Shown here: positions 26,543 to 44,484 of the stretch, piece after piece
Layout of the letters: every line of letters starts with the position of its first letter
Position numbering within the stretch: position 1 is the stretch's first letter
Sequence record: NC_134264.1
Direction: 5' to 3' (one strand)
Length of the DNA: 64,000 nucleotides
From: Escherichia phage Lindwurm
Program-made: the position numbers and the translations under genes
Notes under the pieces: model-generated
Database searches by the model: none
The model's input: the letters and a program-made list of their open reading frames with translations, nothing else
Told to the model about the DNA's origin: nothing

Positions 26543-26566
26543 TAGCCCTTCGGGGCTATTATATTT
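26543..26566 (+). terminator. rho-independent terminator
   Basis: TAGCCC-TTCG-GGGCTA hairpin followed by U-rich tract. Confidence 0.6.
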
Positions 26567-26687
26567 GAAATTGTACTTGCTTATTAAGTACAATTTCAAA
26601 TATAATATACTCAATAAGTACAAAAGGATAATAAAATGAGTAGAGAAATTGAATTAGAACAAGCCCTTCTGAATTTACTCCAATTAC

Positions 26688-33719: not shown

Positions 33720-34490
33720 GCCGATTACGCTGAGTGCAGAATCCCAACCGGAGCGCATTGAATAGAGTCGGTGGGTTAGTTGTAAAACTAGTACACAGGG
33801 GGCGGCAATCCCGGTTAGTGGCTAGAACGTGTAAAATGAGGCGTCTGAAACCTCTCCCCTAAACTCTTCTCTAATTTATAAATAGTGGGGTGTGGAAATC
33901 ACTTATGTAGTAACACTGCCGTACTAGTATAATTGGTATTATCAAGCCGTAACTGGTGGAAGATGTAGGTTCGAATCCTACGGTCGGTAAGAACTGGATA
34001 ACTGGTGCTTTTAATGTAAAAGCTTCCGAGGTTAGTTGCGCACTGCCTAAACCACGCGGTAGTTGGTTCCAGACTAACCAACCAGTCTGCTGAATAGTTT
34101 TATTACGATTTAACTATGTCCAGGCTAAAGAAGAACTTTAGAAGGTATTCTAGGATAGTGAAGTTCTTTCTCCATATCGGAGTAGTTTTTCAAGCTATCC
34201 CCAAAGTGGGAAATGCTGACATGAGAGATGTCACTAATGGTGCACAATAGCACAGGTAATTCGCGATAACTCCTGTTGAGTAGCAGCAAAAGGCGGGAAG
34301 TCATGACCCCAAGCCTAACCGAGTCCTCAATATACCGCAGGACATAACCACTAAGTCACCCTGACTTAAACTGGAAAATAATAGACGTTACCGTATTTTG
34401 TCTTGAAATACTTAATGAGTGAGACTTATGACTCTCCCGGTATCGTCTGTATTTTTAAGAGTTTTTACAAGAGTTCTTAAAAATACTTAA
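33720..34490 (+). ncRNA. structured non-coding leader/RNA region of unknown function
   Basis: about 770 nt without credible ORF, downstream of a promoter; orphan T-arm GTAGG-TTCGAAT-CCTAC at 33965-33981; mutually exclusive hairpins at 34050-34090. Confidence 0.35.
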
Positions 34491-38198: not shown

Positions 38199-38276
38199 GG
38201 TTCTCAAGCTCATATGGTATGAGCACCCAGCTCATAACTGGAAGGTACGTAGGTTCGAATCCTCGGGGAGCCACCA
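38199..38276 (+). tRNA. tRNA with CAU anticodon (Met/fMet/Ile2)
   Basis: acceptor GGTTCTC/GGGAGCC with G-U pairs, D-arm GCTC-ATATGGTAT-GAGC, anticodon loop CTCATAA; T-stem poorly paired. Confidence 0.55.
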
Positions 38277-39604: not shown

Positions 39605-39640
39605 CTAATACAGCATTGGGCAAGTTCTTTAAAATTTGAC

Positions 39641-39669
39641 TTGCCCAATACTATAAAACTTGGTATAAT
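39641..39669 (+). promoter_or_regulatory. early-type promoter
   Basis: TTGCCC-17-TATAAT. Confidence 0.55.
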
Positions 39670-39802
39670 ATTTATCTAATTTGGAAAGTTCTTTTTAAGG
39701 TAGTTCTTACTTTAGCAGAGTAAATTTTTGGCAGATGGCCCCCACCATTTTACCGATAACTCCTAGTCAGTGCGGTAACACTGGCTACCTTAAAGAGAAT
39801 TT

Positions 39803-41527: not shown

Positions 41528-41650
41528 ACATTCTAGCGTGGTTGATGGGGAAACCAGCTTGGCGAGGGCAGAAGCTCGTTCGATTCGAGTGAAAGAATGG
41601 TTCTCGTAAGTCCGCACAAGTGATAACAGGTTCGAGTCCTGTCTAGAATG
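41528..41650 (+). ncRNA. tRNA-like element with large internal insertion (non-canonical)
   Basis: 7-bp acceptor ATTCTAG(41529-35)/CTAGAAT(41642-48), D-arm GGTT-GATGGGGA-AACC, two T-arm-like hairpins (GCTCG-TTCGATT-CGAGT and ACAGG-TTCGAGT-CCTGT), about 121 nt, no CCA. Confidence 0.4.
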
Positions 41651-41798
41651 ACACTATAAAGTTTACTTATTATGTAGGTTCCGGTAGACCGGCGGGTCTA
41701 TTCTGGCATTTAAGAGAGGTCTCGCAAGCCTCTTTGTCAGCAGTGGGGTTGGTAGCCTCCAGGTGGCCTACACAATAAGTAAATTTATTAAAAATTCA

Positions 41799-42416: not shown

Positions 42417-42495
42417 AGATCGCTAGCTCAATAGGTTTAGTAGCATCCGACTTTTAATCGGAAGGTTCTGGGTTCGAGTCCCAGGCGATCTACCA
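42417..42495 (+). tRNA. tRNA-Lys (anticodon UUU)
   Basis: acceptor AGATCGC/GCGATCT, anticodon stem TCCGA/TCGGA loop CTTTTAA, T-arm CTGGG-TTCGAGT-CCCAG, CCA. Confidence 0.7.
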
Positions 42496-42513
42496 ATTTC
42501 AAGAAAAATGCAG

Positions 42514-42542
42514 TTGCTTAATGCTTAATTTCTTGTTATAAT
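42514..42542 (+). promoter_or_regulatory. early-type promoter
   Basis: TTGCTT-17-TATAAT. Confidence 0.6.
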
Positions 42543-42559
42543 ATTTATATAAATTGATG

Positions 42560-42870
42560 CGAAAATAGCTGCCTAGATATCAGGTGTATGACGTCTACAC
42601 TAGCAGAGCTACCGAAAAAGAGATCCTCAGGATAAACGTCGTAGCAAAATTAGTCTGATATCCATCAATTTAGTTCACTAAGGTATTAGCTTGACCTAGG
42701 ACTGGCTGCCAAAAAGCACGATCCCTACGATTCGGGAGAAGTTCTAGATTAGTCCACTAGATTCAGCGGCAACTGAATAGTGTATCGGGTTTGCGAGATG
42801 ACGCGGTTCCTTCCGCTCGAAGCGAAGGTGCTGTAGTTACGCCGAGCTAATAGCCTTAGTAAACTAAAGA
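42560..42870 (+). ncRNA. structured non-coding region of unknown function
   Basis: about 310 nt, promoter-proximal, no credible ORF; hairpins e.g. CCTTCCGCT-CGA-AGCGAAGG at 42808-42830. Confidence 0.3.
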
Positions 42871-43054: not shown

Positions 43055-43639
43055 ATGCAGTTTGTACCAATAAAAGATGCACCAGGGTATTTAGTAAATG
43101 AAACAGGGGATGTGTTATCTACATTTACTAATAAAATTTTATCAAGATATATAGTTGATGGATACCCTGCTGTAAAATTACAGATAAATGGTAAGCAAAC
43201 TTCGGTACTTATACACCGAATTATTTCTCATGTATTTGGGGACTTATATAATCTATTTGACCCTGAATTAGAAGTAGATCACAAGGATAGAGATAGGCTG
43301 AATCTATCTAAAGATAATCTTCAAGTTTTGTCAAAAATAGAACATCAGAAGAAAACTAATAAAGATAATGGATGGTCTGATAGTAGAGTACCTTGCCCCT
43401 TATGTGGAAATCTAATGCTTCAGAGATCAGTAACATGTACAAATTGTAAGCCAAAACCTACAGGAAAGTTAATAAAACCAGAATTGTCCTTAGAAGACAT
43501 AACTGAAAAGGTTTTATTAATGGGGTGGGTTAAGGCAGCTAAAGATCTAGAAGTATCAGAGTCCACTTTACGTAGACGATATACTAAACTAACCGGATTA
43601 AGCCCAAAAGTATTAACAGAACAACGGAAAAGCAAATAG
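43055..43639 (+). CDS. HNH homing endonuclease
   Basis: EVDHKDRDRLNLSKDNLQVLSKIEHQKK HNH motif; C-terminal Cys cluster and HTH-like tail; sits inside tRNA island. Confidence 0.75.
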   Translation: MQFVPIKDAPGYLVNETGDVLSTFTNKILSRYIVDGYPAVKLQINGKQTSVLIHRIISHVFGDLYNLFDPELEVDHKDRDRLNLSKDNLQVLSKIEHQKKTNKDNGWSDSRVPCPLCGNLMLQRSVTCTNCKPKPTGKLIKPELSLEDITEKVLLMGWVKAAKDLEVSESTLRRRYTKLTGLSPKVLTEQRKSK

Positions 43640-43719
43640 ACTGGTGACTAAACCCGATTGGAAATCGGTTGAGTGGTAGCAATACCGCCTTATGGGTTCA
43701 ACTCCCATCTTTTCCGCCA
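43626..43719 (+). tRNA. tRNA-Ser (anticodon GGA), class II
   Basis: acceptor GGAAAAG/CTTTTCC, anticodon stem CCGA/TCGG loop TTGGAAA, long variable arm, T-arm ATGGG-TTCAACT-CCCAT, CCA; 5' end overlaps HNH stop by about 14 nt. Confidence 0.55.
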
Positions 43720-43731
43720 AACAATTTATAC

Positions 43732-43826
43732 GGTAGGTCAATCCAACGGCTGGCGCTGGACTCCGACTTGAAATCGGTTGATCGTAGTGATACGGTGTAA
43801 GGGTTCGATCCCCTTACCTACCTCCA
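43732..43826 (+). tRNA. tRNA-Ser (anticodon UGA), class II
   Basis: acceptor GGTAGGT/ACCTACC, anticodon stem CCGA/TCGG loop CTTGAAA, long variable arm, T-arm AAGGG-TTCGATC-CCCTT, CCA. Confidence 0.6.
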
Positions 43827-44192
43827 AATCTTGAAGTATGCCGGAATCGGTAGACGGGGCTGCCTAAAAGGTTTATAGAGAACATCCACTCTCTACAACA
43901 TACCTCATAAAGCGGCTGAGATAAATGGTCTATCTCGTGAAGGTTCAAGTCCTTCTGCTTCTTGATACACCTATGGCTCAAAGTGTAACGGTGCTATTTG
44001 ATACTCTTAGTAAGACTTTCCCGACATGCGTTCGGGAGTAAGCTGCTAAGGCTAGAGTAGAAGAGTTTCGGAGAGCCGCCACAATTGAAAATTCGTACTC
44101 GTCTTGAGCTGCGTGCAATAGGAGATAACTTGATTAGTATTCTAGAACATGCTAATTGAGGAAGGTTTCGCTAACCCTGCGAGTTTTCAATT
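43827..44192 (+). ncRNA. structured non-coding region with orphan T-arm and 14-bp inverted repeat
   Basis: T-arm-like GAAGG-TTCAAGT-CCTTC at 43939-43955 with no matching acceptor; stem-loop CCCGA-CATGCGT-TCGGG; IR GCCACAATTGAAAA (44078-44091) / TTTTCAATTGTGGC (44184-44197). Confidence 0.35.
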
Positions 44193-44269
44193 GTGGCTAT
44201 ATCATAATTGGTTAATGATCCTGATTGTGAATCAGGCCTATGTGGATTCGAATTCCACTAGCCACCCCA
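44193..44269 (+). tRNA. tRNA-His (anticodon GUG)
   Basis: acceptor GTGGCTA/TAGCCAC, D-arm TCAT...ATGA, anticodon stem CCTGA/TCAGG loop TTGTGAA, T-arm GTGGA-TTCGAAT-TCCAC, C73, CCA. Confidence 0.75.
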
Positions 44270-44484
44270 AATTAACTTAAATAGGGAATAAAATATAGCT
44301 GATTTCTGCAAACAATGCTCCGTTGATATGTGGGGTAGAGATACTGGTGATCTTTCTGGTTTGATTACAGAAGCTGAGGTCAAAGAAGGTTATGGTGCAG
44401 TTGTGATTTGCGAAGGATGCGGAGTTATTCGAGTAGATCATGAAGGCAAACGTTTAGAAGAACAGGAAAACTTAGGAGAAACAA

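What the first reader, a model, noticed from the sequence alone, without database searches (positions are those of the whole stretch)
43827..44197. Structured spacer between tRNA-Ser and tRNA-His with orphan T-arm and a perfect 14-bp inverted repeat
A T-arm (GAAGG-TTCAAGT-CCTTC) at 43939-43955 has no complementary 5' acceptor strand. Further downstream, GCCACAATTGAAAA (44078-44091) is the exact reverse complement of TTTTCAATTGTGGC (44184-44197), enclosing 92 nt. The right arm overlaps the first five nucleotides of tRNA-His. This may be a precursor-processing structure, a miniature inverted-repeat insertion, or remnants of tRNA genes.
Basis: seen in the sequence. Interest (0 to 1): 0.5.

Follow-up and report, generated by a model that had tools for sequence, protein, structure and literature searches.

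The report
Known T5 stable-RNA genes, processing helix
The supposed spacer between two tRNA genes of this T5-like phage holds three small RNA genes already annotated in phage T5, with function still unknown, and the inverted repeat is the outer part of a conserved 20-base-pair RNA helix that most likely guides cutting of the precursor next to tRNA-His.

Summary
The window is a T5-like phage (Tequintavirus). Both observations are real. The T-arm lies at 43939-43955. The perfect 14-bp inverted repeat lies at 44078-44091 / 44184-44197, where simulations expect 0.03 per window.

The region is not a spacer. It is orthologous (87-99% identity) to three misc_RNA genes annotated in the T5 RefSeq record:
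- rna1, "tRNA-like stable RNA with unknown functions" (43830-43974)
- rnaI (43975-44081)
- rnaIII (44086-44191)

The "orphan" T-arm does have a 5' acceptor partner. RNA1 is a Leu-like class II cloverleaf whose anticodon loop is replaced by a ~45-nt arm, and covariation strongly supports this fold.

The repeat is the outer 14 bp of a 20-bp helix. It pairs the RNAI 3' CCA and trailer with the tRNA-His leader and nucleotides 1-5, and it closes RNAIII. Six different cassettes occupy this slot in related phages. All keep a 19-20-bp helix, with compensatory changes and G·U pairs on the + strand only. The RNAIII ends annotated in T5 lie on it with a 2-nt 3' overhang, so I infer an RNase III processing site; this is not shown.

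The RNA genes are already known. The cassette slot may be new.

The parts
43626..43719 (+). tRNA-Ser(GGA), the upstream neighbour
   Evidence: ARAGORN. Orthologue of T5 tRNAS2.
   Evidence: ARAGORN -ps. Matches the tRNA-Sec model at 38.3 bits. Missed by default ARAGORN and by Rfam at the gathering score.
43830..43974 (+). RNA1: tRNA-like stable RNA, a class II cloverleaf with an expanded anticodon arm plus a 3' trailer
   Evidence: 87% identical to T5 rna1. T5 RefSeq note: "tRNA-like stable RNA with unknown functions". Rfam tRNA model 25.0 bits. Covariation: 97.9% of cells paired against 42-52% when partners are slid, 11 pairs with changes on both sides, 0/500 shuffles as high.
43833..43838 (+). 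RNA1 acceptor stem, 5' strand (pairs with 43956-43961)
   Evidence: Helix 1: 4 of 6 pairs change on both sides and 97.6% of cells are paired.
43859..43916 (+). RNA1 anticodon stem (43859-63 : 43912-16) with the ~45-nt arm that replaces the anticodon loop. The apical hairpin is 43876-43895, and its 8-nt loop ACAUCCAC (43882-43889) is identical in all but one of the 32 distinct RNA1 sequences.
   Evidence: Pairs 30:87, 33:84, 40:76, 48:65, 49:64 and 50:63 covary.
43918..43936 (+). RNA1 long variable-arm hairpin
   Evidence: Helix 6 (100% paired, one A-U to U-A swap).
43939..43955 (+).
43975..44081 (+). RNAI: 107-nt RNA with a tRNA-like terminal stem, GGCUC...GAGCC followed by G and CCA
   Evidence: 91% identical to T5 rnaI. 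The closing stem and the apical hairpin covary, and Sugarlandvirus has GGCCC/GGGCC. Its 5' end abuts the RNA1 3' end.
44082..44085 (+). CAAU linker between the RNAI CCA end and the RNAIII 5' end
   Evidence: Gap between the annotated T5 features.
44086..44191 (+). RNAIII: 106-nt multi-hairpin RNA
   Evidence: 99% identical to T5 rnaIII. Folding z-score -2.9 alone and -6.0 with the full helix.
44078..44097 (+). Left arm of the 20-bp precursor helix. It covers the RNAI discriminator G and CCA, the CAAU linker, and the first 12 nt of RNAIII.
44178..44197 (+). Right arm of the 20-bp helix. It covers the last 14 nt of RNAIII, U(-1), and tRNA-His nt 1-5.
44193..44269 (+). tRNA-His(GUG). T5 annotates 78 nt including U(-1), which corresponds to 44192.
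   Evidence: ARAGORN and Rfam at 59.9 bits. T5 annotation.

Best explanation
The interval 43827-44192 is not a spacer. It carries three small non-coding RNA genes on the + strand, with no promoter of their own detected, so presumably co-transcribed with the flanking tRNAs. They are orthologues of phage T5 rna1, rnaI and rnaIII.

RNA1 (43830-43974) is a tRNA-derived RNA of class II, Leu-like type. It keeps the acceptor stem, D-arm, long variable arm and T-arm. Its anticodon loop is replaced by a ~45-nt helical arm that ends in a near-invariant loop, ACAUCCAC.

RNAI (43975-44081) is a rod-like RNA closed by a tRNA-like stem that ends in G-CCA.

RNAIII (44086-44191) is a multi-hairpin RNA.

The 14-bp inverted repeat is the outer part of a 20-bp helix in the precursor transcript. 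That helix pairs the RNAI 3' end and trailer with the tRNA-His leader and its first five nucleotides, and it closes RNAIII.

Inferred mechanism, in order:
1. The helix forms first and sequesters the tRNA-His acceptor strand.
2. Host RNase III cuts it with a 2-nt stagger, between 44085|44086 and between 44191|44192.
3. The cut releases RNAIII with a 12-bp terminal stem.
4. RNAI is left with CCA plus CAAU, which 3' exonucleases can trim.
5. tRNA-His is left with a monophosphorylated U(-1) 5' end and is free to fold.

What is shown: orthology, the structures, and conservation of the helix. What is inferred: that RNase III is the enzyme, and the order of events. What the three RNAs do is unknown.

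Sub-confidences: identity as the T5 RNA genes about 0.95; the helix as a selected RNA-level structure about 0.85; RNase III as the enzyme about 0.5.
For: Identity:
- 431-498 T5-like phage records match the region.
- AY692264 and NC_005859 annotate rna1, rnaI and rnaIII exactly here, with the notes "(tRNA-like) stable RNA with unknown functions".
- The alignment and BLAST map them to the window base for base.

RNA1 fold:
- Rfam tRNA model at 25 bits.
- 34 pairs are 97.9% paired against 42-52% when partners are slid, 11 pairs change on both sides, and 0/500 shuffles reach the observed values.
- Its D-arm resembles the window's own tRNA-Leu(UAG).

RNAI: the closing stem and apical hairpin covary, including GGCUC/GAGCC changing to GGCCC/GGGCC in Sugarlandvirus.

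Helix:
- It is 20 bp in the window, and it is the minimum-free-energy feature of the 443-nt precursor, where it displaces the tRNA-His acceptor stem.
- Six different cassettes (33, 68, 106, 126, 138 and 148 nt; some share a hairpin motif and may be related) occupy the slot in 38 loci. All are closed by 18-22 bp.
- On the arms-only alignment, pairs 1-20 are 91% paired against 33-45% when slid, 9 pairs change on both sides, 0/500 shuffles reach the observed values, and pairs 21-22 are unpaired.
- There is a compensatory G-C to A-U change inside the repeat in L028 and two compensatory changes in the outer part in Sugarlandvirus, whose tRNA-His 5' sequence differs.
- Across the helices there are 14 G·U cells and 1 A·C cell, so the pairing is in the + strand RNA.

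RNase III geometry: the T5-annotated RNAIII 5' end (44086) pairs with 44189, and the annotated 3' end is 44191. That is a 2-nt 3' overhang, and the tRNA-His feature starts at the next base.

Established knowledge (my own): RNase III is the E. coli endonuclease specific for double-stranded RNA of about 20 bp. Its role in T4 tRNA maturation is cited in PMC4810235.
Against: - There are no expression or end-mapping data for this phage. The ends come from the T5 GenBank annotation, and I could not check their experimental basis because the 1980s papers are not in the library.
- The analogous helix around RNAIV gives a 1-nt overhang, not 2 nt, and the cut lies at a different depth in that helix. RNase III placement is therefore not uniform.
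- In Sugarlandvirus the helix overlaps only G1-G2 of tRNA-His. A cut that creates exactly position -1 is not general.
- The single-sequence folding z-scores of RNA1 (-1.6) and RNAI (-1.3) are unremarkable.
- The middle part of RNAI is not resolved.
- RNAIII is too conserved to test its inner hairpins by covariation.
Confidence: 0.72

Rival explanations
1. The helix is real, but its job is only to give RNAIII and the alternative cassettes a closed, exonuclease-resistant end. The ends would be made by RNase P at tRNA-His, by RNase E, and by 3' exonucleases. RNase III would not be involved.
For: - The RNAIII 3' end coincides with the 5' end of the tRNA-His feature, as a single RNase P-type cut would give.
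- RNAIV ends do not show a clean 2-nt stagger.
- The position of the tRNA-His junction within the helix differs between T5-likes and Sugarlandvirus.
Against: - The helix extends 8 bp beyond the mature RNAIII ends into RNAI and tRNA-His. That outer part is kept by compensatory changes, which a role confined to mature RNAIII does not explain.
- Helix length is held at about 20 bp across different cassettes.
- While the helix stands, the tRNA-His acceptor stem cannot form, so RNase P would lack its substrate.
Confidence: 0.2
2. The inverted repeats are the terminal repeats of a DNA-level mobile or recombining cassette, either MITE-like or tied to a homing endonuclease. RNA pairing would be incidental.
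For: - Different cassettes sit in exactly the same site between the same repeats in different phages.
- The core CAATTG is itself a palindrome, so both arms also share a direct repeat.
- HNH homing endonuclease genes lie in the tRNA array.
Against: - The motif and the spacer are single-copy in the 64-kb window.
- There are no homologues in E. coli genomes or plasmids.
- There is no target-site duplication.
- The cassette-specific inner half of each helix also pairs.
- There are 14 G·U cells against 1 A·C cell, which shows selection on the + strand RNA and not on duplex DNA.
- Cassette exchange by ordinary recombination in the conserved RNAI and tRNA-His flanks needs no transposition.
Confidence: 0.06
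3. The region is decayed tRNA pseudogenes and non-functional filler between tRNA genes.
For: - RNA1 scores below the Rfam tRNA gathering threshold and has no usable anticodon loop or encoded CCA.
- Gostya9 lacks RNA1, and many phages lack RNAIII.
Against: - Compensatory substitutions maintain every helix of RNA1, the closing stem and apical hairpin of RNAI, and the slot helix across Tequintavirus, Epseptimavirus and Sugarlandvirus.
- The RNA1 apical loop is nearly invariant.
- T5 RefSeq lists all three as stable RNAs.
Confidence: 0.03
4. RNA1 is an intron-containing tRNA, as in the ARAGORN -i call of tRNA-Phe(AAA) with a 41-nt intron, and it is spliced to a working tRNA.
For: The ARAGORN -i call and the full-length alignment to the Rfam tRNA model.
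Against: - The insert is 41-45 nt, far too short for a group I intron. Group I introns are the only tRNA intron type known in bacteria and their phages (my own knowledge).
- The would-be anticodon loop is not conserved: CUAAAA in the window, CUAAAG in Epseptimavirus, CGAAUA in T5, with U33 lost in T5.
- Position 1:72 is U·U and no CCA is encoded.
- T5 annotates the 144-nt form as the RNA.
Confidence: 0.02
5. The interval encodes small proteins, as several GenBank records annotate.
For: - ORFs of 38-55 aa exist in the window.
- Hypothetical-protein CDSs are annotated here in phages N5, Stitch and rutana.
Against: - The ORFs change strand, frame and length between lineages.
- The substitutions are of the compensatory RNA-pair type.
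- The T5 curators annotate RNAs here, not CDSs.
Confidence: 0.02

Closest known systems
Phage T5 rna1, rnaI and rnaIII (misc_RNA T5s03, T5s02 and T5s01 in NC_005859; also in AY692264)
   Same: Same position between tRNA-Ser(UGA) and tRNA-His, same order and same lengths. Identity is 87%, 91% and 99%. These are the same genes in a sister phage.
   Different: The window lacks the small CDS (T5.063 / T5p061) that T5 has between tRNA-Ser and rna1. RNA1 carries several compensatory substitutions relative to T5.
Phage T4 rnaC (species 1 RNA) and rnaD (species 2 RNA) in the T4 tRNA cluster
   Same: They are small stable RNAs co-located with phage tRNA genes, and their biological role is unknown (PMC3014915; annotation). 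T4 rnaC folds with an acceptor-like stem, a T-arm, a variable-arm-like hairpin and a long arm in place of the anticodon arm, which is the same layout as RNA1. rnaD ends in ACC followed by A.
   Different: There is no detectable sequence similarity apart from the T-loop. T4 has two RNAs at the end of the cluster, not three ahead of tRNA-His. I did not examine T4 for an equivalent cassette slot.
RNase III processing stems in polycistronic precursors (rRNA operons, T7 early RNA, T4 tRNA precursor)
   Same: A helix of about 20 bp formed by sequences that flank a released RNA. The annotated ends are staggered by 2 nt. RNase III involvement in T4 tRNA maturation is cited in PMC4810235.
   Different: Cleavage here is inferred only. 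The helix overlaps the mature 5' end of a tRNA and the CCA end of another RNA, which I do not know from the classical examples.
Class II tRNA (tRNA-Leu)
   Same: RNA1 has the D-arm UGCCGGAAUCGGUAGAC, which is like the window's tRNA-Leu(UAG) and like E. coli tRNA-Leu as I recall it. It also has a long variable arm, a GGUUCAAGUCC T-arm and a 6-7-bp acceptor stem.
   Different: There is no 7-nt anticodon loop, no encoded CCA, a U·U at position 1:72 and a retained 3' trailer. The Rfam score is below the family threshold.

Membership tests
T5 stable RNA genes rna1 / rnaI / rnaIII (orthology) | Full-length sequence similarity to the annotated T5 features | tested here: met
   87% (137-138 of 144 nt aligned), 91% (107/107) and 99% (106/106) identity. 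The alignment has one 1-nt indel.
T5 stable RNA genes rna1 / rnaI / rnaIII (orthology) | Synteny: tRNA-Ser, tRNA-Ser, rna1, rnaI, rnaIII, tRNA-His on one strand | tested here: met
T5 stable RNA genes rna1 / rnaI / rnaIII (orthology) | Accumulation as discrete stable RNAs in infected cells | not testable with these tools
   Only the RefSeq note "stable RNA" is available. There are no expression data for this phage.
Canonical tRNA (for RNA1) | Score at or above the Rfam RF00005 gathering threshold | tested here: not met
   25.0 bits against a gathering score of 29. Not called by default ARAGORN.
Canonical tRNA (for RNA1) | Acceptor stem, D-arm, T-arm and variable arm forming a cloverleaf | tested here: met
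   Full-length alignment to the model. Covariation supports the acceptor, anticodon-stem and variable-arm helices; the D and T stems are fully paired but nearly invariant.
Canonical tRNA (for RNA1) | 7-nt anticodon loop with conserved U33 and a conserved anticodon | tested here: not met
   The loop is replaced by a ~45-nt arm. The would-be loop differs between lineages, and U33 is G in T5.
Canonical tRNA (for RNA1) | 3' CCA end, encoded or added, directly after the discriminator | tested here: not met
   The sequence after the acceptor stem is UUGAUACACCUAU, and T5 annotates the trailer as part of the RNA. Post-transcriptional addition cannot be excluded.
Group I intron-containing tRNA | Intron of at least ~200 nt with a P1-P9 core in the anticodon loop | tested here: not met
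   The insert is 41-45 nt. There is no Rfam intron hit at an E-value up to 10.
RNase III processing site | Continuous double-stranded RNA of about two helical turns (about 20 bp) | tested here: met
   20 bp (18 Watson-Crick, 2 G·U) in the window. 18-22 bp in all cassette types.
RNase III processing site | Product ends staggered with a 2-nt 3' overhang | tested here: inconclusive
   The T5-annotated RNAIII ends fit exactly: 44086 pairs with 44189 and the 3' end is 44191. I could not verify the experimental basis of those ends. RNAIV gives a 1-nt overhang.
RNase III processing site | Cleavage dependent on host rnc, or cleavage by purified RNase III | not testable with these tools
   Needs an experiment.
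MITE / transposable cassette | Multiple dispersed copies with the same terminal inverted repeats | tested here: not met
   CACAATTGA and TCAATTGTG each occur once in the window, and the spacer has no second copy. There are no hits in E. coli genomes or plasmids.
MITE / transposable cassette | Target-site duplication flanking the repeats | tested here: not met
   The flanks are GAGAGCC on the left and TATATCA on the right, with no direct repeat.
Intrinsic terminator | Short GC-rich hairpin followed directly by a U-run | tested here: not met
   The arms are 92 nt apart and no U-tract follows the right arm. The two scan hits in the spacer are the RNA1 T-arm and a small RNAIII hairpin.
T4 rnaC / rnaD family | Sequence homology to T4 rnaC or rnaD | tested here: not met
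   BLASTN finds only the 11-13-nt T-loop match and nhmmer finds nothing. The resemblance is architectural only.

The most novel reading that the evidence does not exclude
The site in front of tRNA-His may be a conserved RNase III-gated cassette slot in Demerecviridae. A helix of about 20 bp of fixed length bridges the CCA end of RNAI and the 5' end of tRNA-His, so tRNA-His can mature only after the helix is cut. At least three unrelated families of structured RNAs (RNAIII, a 68/33-nt type, and a 126/148-nt type, with a 138-nt type that may belong to the last) have been swapped into the same helix frame in different lineages.

The cut would also create the extra 5' nucleotide, U(-1) with a 5' phosphate, on a tRNA-His that has no encoded G(-1).

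The payload RNAs, and the anticodon-less Leu-like RNA1 with its near-invariant ACAUCCAC loop, could be decoys or inhibitors aimed at host factors that target tRNA. That last point is speculation.

I found no description of the slot, of the cassette exchange, or of the helix covariation in the searchable literature.
Probability: 0.3. Interest if true: 0.55.

Novelty: already known. Interest (0 to 1): 0.33.

Why it matters
For annotation, the result is practical. Most of the ~500 T5-like genomes leave this interval blank or place spurious "hypothetical protein" CDSs on it. No Rfam family covers RNA1, RNAI or RNAIII. ARAGORN in intron mode can miscall RNA1 as an intron-bearing tRNA-Phe.

For biology, small stable RNAs inside phage tRNA clusters (T4 species 1 and 2, T5 RNAI, RNAIII and RNAIV) have lacked a function for decades. 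The comparative data here give covariation-backed structures for RNA1 and for parts of RNAI. They also show that the helix in front of tRNA-His is selected in its own right while its contents are exchangeable. Both points can be tested directly with rnc mutants and helix mutants.

T5 tRNA genes are now linked to evasion of host defences that target tRNA (my own recollection, not checked here). The tRNA-like RNAs next to them are therefore reasonable candidates for the same arms race, but nothing here shows that.

Tried and rejected
1. Rfam at the gathering score and at an E-value up to 10 over 43550-44350. Only tRNA-type hits appeared, with nothing credible for RNAI or RNAIII.
2. ARAGORN variants. 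The intron-mode call of tRNA-Phe(AAA) is rejected as a functional tRNA, and tmRNA mode found nothing.
3. Literature searches for T5 stable RNAs, RNase III, and T5 transcriptomics. Nothing specific is in the open library, and the T5 genome paper is not held.
4. BLASTN of the spacer against E. coli genomes and plasmids. No match, so there is no host homologue or prophage copy.
5. IMG/VR scans with RNAI and RNA1 patterns. These returned only the same T5-like contigs and no wider family.
6. Promoter and terminator scan. No promoter was found inside the spacer, and the terminator-like hits are the RNA1 T-arm and a small RNAIII hairpin.
7. T4 rnaC and rnaD homology test. Negative.
8. ORF check across lineages. 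No conserved reading frame.
9. A full consensus structure for RNAI. Only the closing stem and the apical hairpin are secure, and the middle part stays unresolved.
10. A fixed RNase III ruler. The idea that the cut lies at the same depth in every helix of the array is not supported, because RNAIV and Sugarlandvirus differ.
Full report
**Check of the observation.**
The sequence is as described.
- GAAGGTTCAAGTCCTTC lies at 43939-43955.
- GCCACAATTGAAAA (44078-44091) is the exact reverse complement of TTTTCAATTGTGGC (44184-44197), with 92 nt between the arms.
- tRNA-His is called at 44193-44269, so the right arm overlaps its first five bases.
- In 100 first-order Markov simulations of the window, the mean number of perfect 14-bp inverted repeats with a loop of 150 nt or less was 0.03. 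The repeat is therefore not a chance event.
- With G·U pairs the helix runs for 20 bp, 44078-44097 with 44178-44197.

The T-arm does have a 5' acceptor partner (see RNA1 below).

**What the region is.**
The window is a T5-like phage. 431 phage records match 43600-44300 at high identity, nearly all of them Tequintavirus or Epseptimavirus.

In most of these records the Ser-to-His interval is unannotated or carries small "hypothetical protein" CDSs. The curated T5 records differ. AY692264 and RefSeq NC_005859 place three misc_RNA genes there:
- rna1, 144 nt, "tRNA-like stable RNA with unknown functions"
- rnaI, 107 nt, "stable RNA with unknown functions"
- rnaIII, 106 nt, "stable RNA with unknown functions"

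rnaIII abuts a 78-nt tRNA-His feature.

Alignment and BLAST map these onto the window almost base for base:
- RNA1 at 43830-43974 (87% identity)
- RNAI at 43975-44081 (91%)
- a 4-nt linker, CAAU, at 44082-44085
- RNAIII at 44086-44191 (99%)

So the "spacer" is fully occupied by known, if obscure, RNA genes. None of them has an Rfam family.

**RNA1 and the "orphan" T-arm.**
The Rfam tRNA model aligns 43832-43963 from model position 1 to 71 at 25.0 bits, below the gathering score of 29. The alignment has a 45-nt insertion in the anticodon loop and a long variable arm. ARAGORN in intron mode calls the same stretch.

I collected 32 distinct RNA1 sequences from GenBank and IMG/VR loci. On 14 representatives, a cloverleaf with an extended anticodon arm gave the following:
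- 97.9% of cells paired, against 42-52% when partners are slid by 1-3 columns
- 11 pairs with changes on both sides
- 0 of 500 shuffles reaching the observed values

The acceptor stem, 43833-43838 with 43956-43961, has four covarying pairs out of six. The stem of the apical hairpin changes freely (UAGAGA/UCUCUA in the window, CUAGGA/UCCUAG in T5). Its 8-nt loop, ACAUCCAC (43882-43889), is unchanged in 31 of the 32 sequences; L026 has ACAUCCGC.

The D-arm, UGCCGGAAUCGGUAGAC, resembles the phage's own tRNA-Leu(UAG).

RNA1 is not a working tRNA:
- It has no 7-nt anticodon loop.
- The would-be loop differs between lineages, and U33 is lost in T5.
- Position 1:72 is U·U.
- No CCA is encoded.

The insert is also far too short for a group I intron.

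**RNAI and RNAIII.**
RNAI starts GGCUC and ends GAGCC-G-CCA, which is a tRNA-like terminal stem with a discriminator and CCA. Its 5' end abuts the RNA1 3' end.

Two core variants of RNAI exist. Their termini are conserved, and the apical hairpin covaries (UCCCGA/UCGGGA against UCCUGG/CCAGGA). In a Klebsiella Sugarlandvirus the closing stem is GGCCC/GGGCC. The middle of the molecule is not resolved.

RNAIII is 95-100% identical wherever it is present, so its inner hairpins cannot be tested by covariation. Its folding z-score is -2.9 alone and -6.0 with the full helix.

**The inverted repeat.**
In the 443-nt precursor, the minimum-free-energy structure contains the 20-bp helix, and the tRNA-His acceptor stem is not formed.

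I anchored on the tRNA-His 5' half to avoid bias and compared 38 distinct loci. The interval between the RNAI CCA end and tRNA-His holds six different inserts:

| Insert length | Found in |
|---|---|
| 106 nt (RNAIII) | most loci |
| 126 nt | SE24 |
| 68 nt | three Epseptimaviruses |
| 33 nt | L028 |
| 148 nt | L015 |
| 138 nt | L024 |

The 126-nt and 148-nt types and the ~150-nt Sugarlandvirus insert share a hairpin motif (GGAGGNCTGATCANCCC), so they may be one family.

All six begin ...GCCGCCACAATTGA and end TCAATT|GTGGC. In each one, the cassette-specific sequence continues the helix to 18-22 bp.

On an arms-only alignment:
- Pairs 1-20 are 91% paired, against 33-45% when slid.
- 9 pairs change on both sides.
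- 0 of 500 shuffles reach the observed values.
- Pairs 21-22 are unpaired, so the length is held at about 20 bp.

In Sugarlandvirus the arms are CCAAATTTGAGTATCATTG and CGATGGTACTCAAATTTGG. That is 19 bp, with two compensatory changes in the outer part relative to T5. The helix still spans the RNAI CCA end and the first bases of a tRNA-His that has a different acceptor sequence.

Across the helices there are 14 G·U cells and 1 A·C cell. The pairing is therefore selected in the + strand RNA, not in duplex DNA.

The motif and the spacer are single-copy in the window, with no homologue in E. coli genomes or plasmids. There is no target-site duplication. This argues against a MITE.

**Mechanism.**
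What is shown: a conserved helix of about 20 bp in the precursor pairs the 3' end and trailer of RNAI with the leader and 5' end of tRNA-His, and it encloses an exchangeable structured RNA.

What is inferred: it is an RNase III site. The reasons are these:
- The length is about two helical turns and is held constant.
- The T5-annotated RNAIII ends sit on the helix with exactly a 2-nt 3' overhang. The 5' end at 44086 pairs with 44189, and the 3' end is at 44191.
- The complementary cut products would be RNAI ending in CCA plus CAAU, which is a normal substrate for 3' trimming, and tRNA-His beginning at U(-1) = 44192. That is where T5 annotates its 78-nt tRNA-His.
- RNase III is known to take part in T4 tRNA precursor processing (PMC4810235).

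The caveats are these:
- I could not verify how the T5 ends were determined.
- The analogous helix around RNAIV gives a 1-nt stagger at a different depth.
- In Sugarlandvirus the tRNA junction lies elsewhere in the helix.

I put RNase III at about 0.5 and the helix as a functional RNA structure at about 0.85.

The scan found no promoter inside the interval. A homologue of T5 promoter P13b lies upstream at 42495-42559, which is consistent with co-transcription with the tRNAs.

The biological role of the three RNAs remains unknown. A decoy role for the anticodon-less, Leu-like RNA1 is only an idea.

**Comparison with what is known.**
- The genes are orthologues of T5 rna1, rnaI and rnaIII.
- The nearest analogues elsewhere are T4 rnaC and rnaD (species 1 and 2 RNAs). 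They also lie in a tRNA cluster and also have an unknown role (PMC3014915).
- T4 rnaC folds into the same layout as RNA1: an acceptor-like stem, a T-arm, a variable-arm hairpin, and a long arm in place of the anticodon arm. There is no sequence similarity beyond the T-loop.
- The window contains the other T5 stable-RNA orthologues too: rna2, RNAIV and RNA2H.
- It also has an unannotated RNA with a 19-bp closing helix at 39686-39802, directly before tRNA-Tyr. Helix-closed RNAs are therefore a recurring design in this array.

**Verdict.**
The RNA genes are already known from T5, so novelty is low. The conserved, covarying helix of fixed length, and the exchange of different cassettes inside it, may not have been described and can be tested cheaply.

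Noticed in passing
window 26557-26607: A perfect 22-bp inverted repeat (26557-26578 / 26586-26607) with a 7-nt loop. It is the only other perfect inverted repeat of 14 bp or more with a short loop in the window.
   Followed up: no
window 43732-43826: tRNA-Ser(UGA) is missed by default ARAGORN and by Rfam tRNA at the gathering score. It is found only with the ARAGORN -ps option and as a sub-threshold tRNA-Sec-model hit.
   Followed up: partly
window 38199-38273 and 33918-33989: Rfam tRNA hits (38.2 and 29.9 bits) with no ARAGORN call. They may be further atypical tRNAs or tRNA-like RNAs.
   Followed up: no
window 43055-43639: The HNH endonuclease ORF (194 aa) ends 14 nt inside tRNA-Ser(GGA) (43626-43719). 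This is the same overlap as hegC and tRNAS2 in T5.
   Followed up: no
window 41529-41653, 41672-41774, 42684-42855: Orthologues of the other annotated T5 stable RNAs:
- rna2 is tRNA-like, with a T-arm and an 8-bp acceptor-like stem.
- RNAIV lies inside a 20-bp helix, 41659-78 / 41767-86, with folding z-score -6.1.
- RNA2H has a 15-bp closing helix.

   Followed up: partly
window 39686-39802: An unannotated multi-hairpin RNA closed by a 19-bp helix (z-score -3.2). It ends one base before tRNA-Tyr (39803) and follows a promoter-like TTGACT...TATAAT at about 39637-39672. This is the same design as RNAIII ahead of tRNA-His.
   Followed up: partly
window 44192-44199 and 44259-44269; L048 1095-1172: The phage tRNA-His has U, not G, at position -1 in every locus where I read the junction. 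The discriminator is C73 in T5-likes and U73 in Sugarlandvirus. It is unclear how this tRNA obtains or dispenses with the G(-1) that HisRS normally needs.
   Followed up: partly
L014 460-600, L015 420-562, L024 431-572 (coordinates in the oriented 877-nt extracts made, not locus coordinates): Some Epseptimaviruses carry an extra ~120-nt module between RNA1 and RNAI. RNAI itself exists in two core variants with conserved termini. Gostya9 and L045 lack RNA1 altogether. The RNA genes behave as modules.
   Followed up: partly
L009 about 790-940 (Klebsiella phage vB_Kpn_3): The 5' two-thirds of a tRNA-Ser(GCU) is joined at the T-arm to the 3' acceptor strand and trailer of RNA1, so the acceptor strands no longer match. 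The cause is either recombination through the shared T-arm GAAGGTTCAAGTCCTTC or an assembly artefact, since the record has gaps.
   Followed up: partly
GenBank records for N5, Stitch and rutana (L016, L005, L007): "Hypothetical protein" CDSs are annotated on top of RNA1, RNAI and RNAIII. ORFs in this interval change frame, strand and length between lineages, so these are probably mis-annotations.
   Followed up: partly
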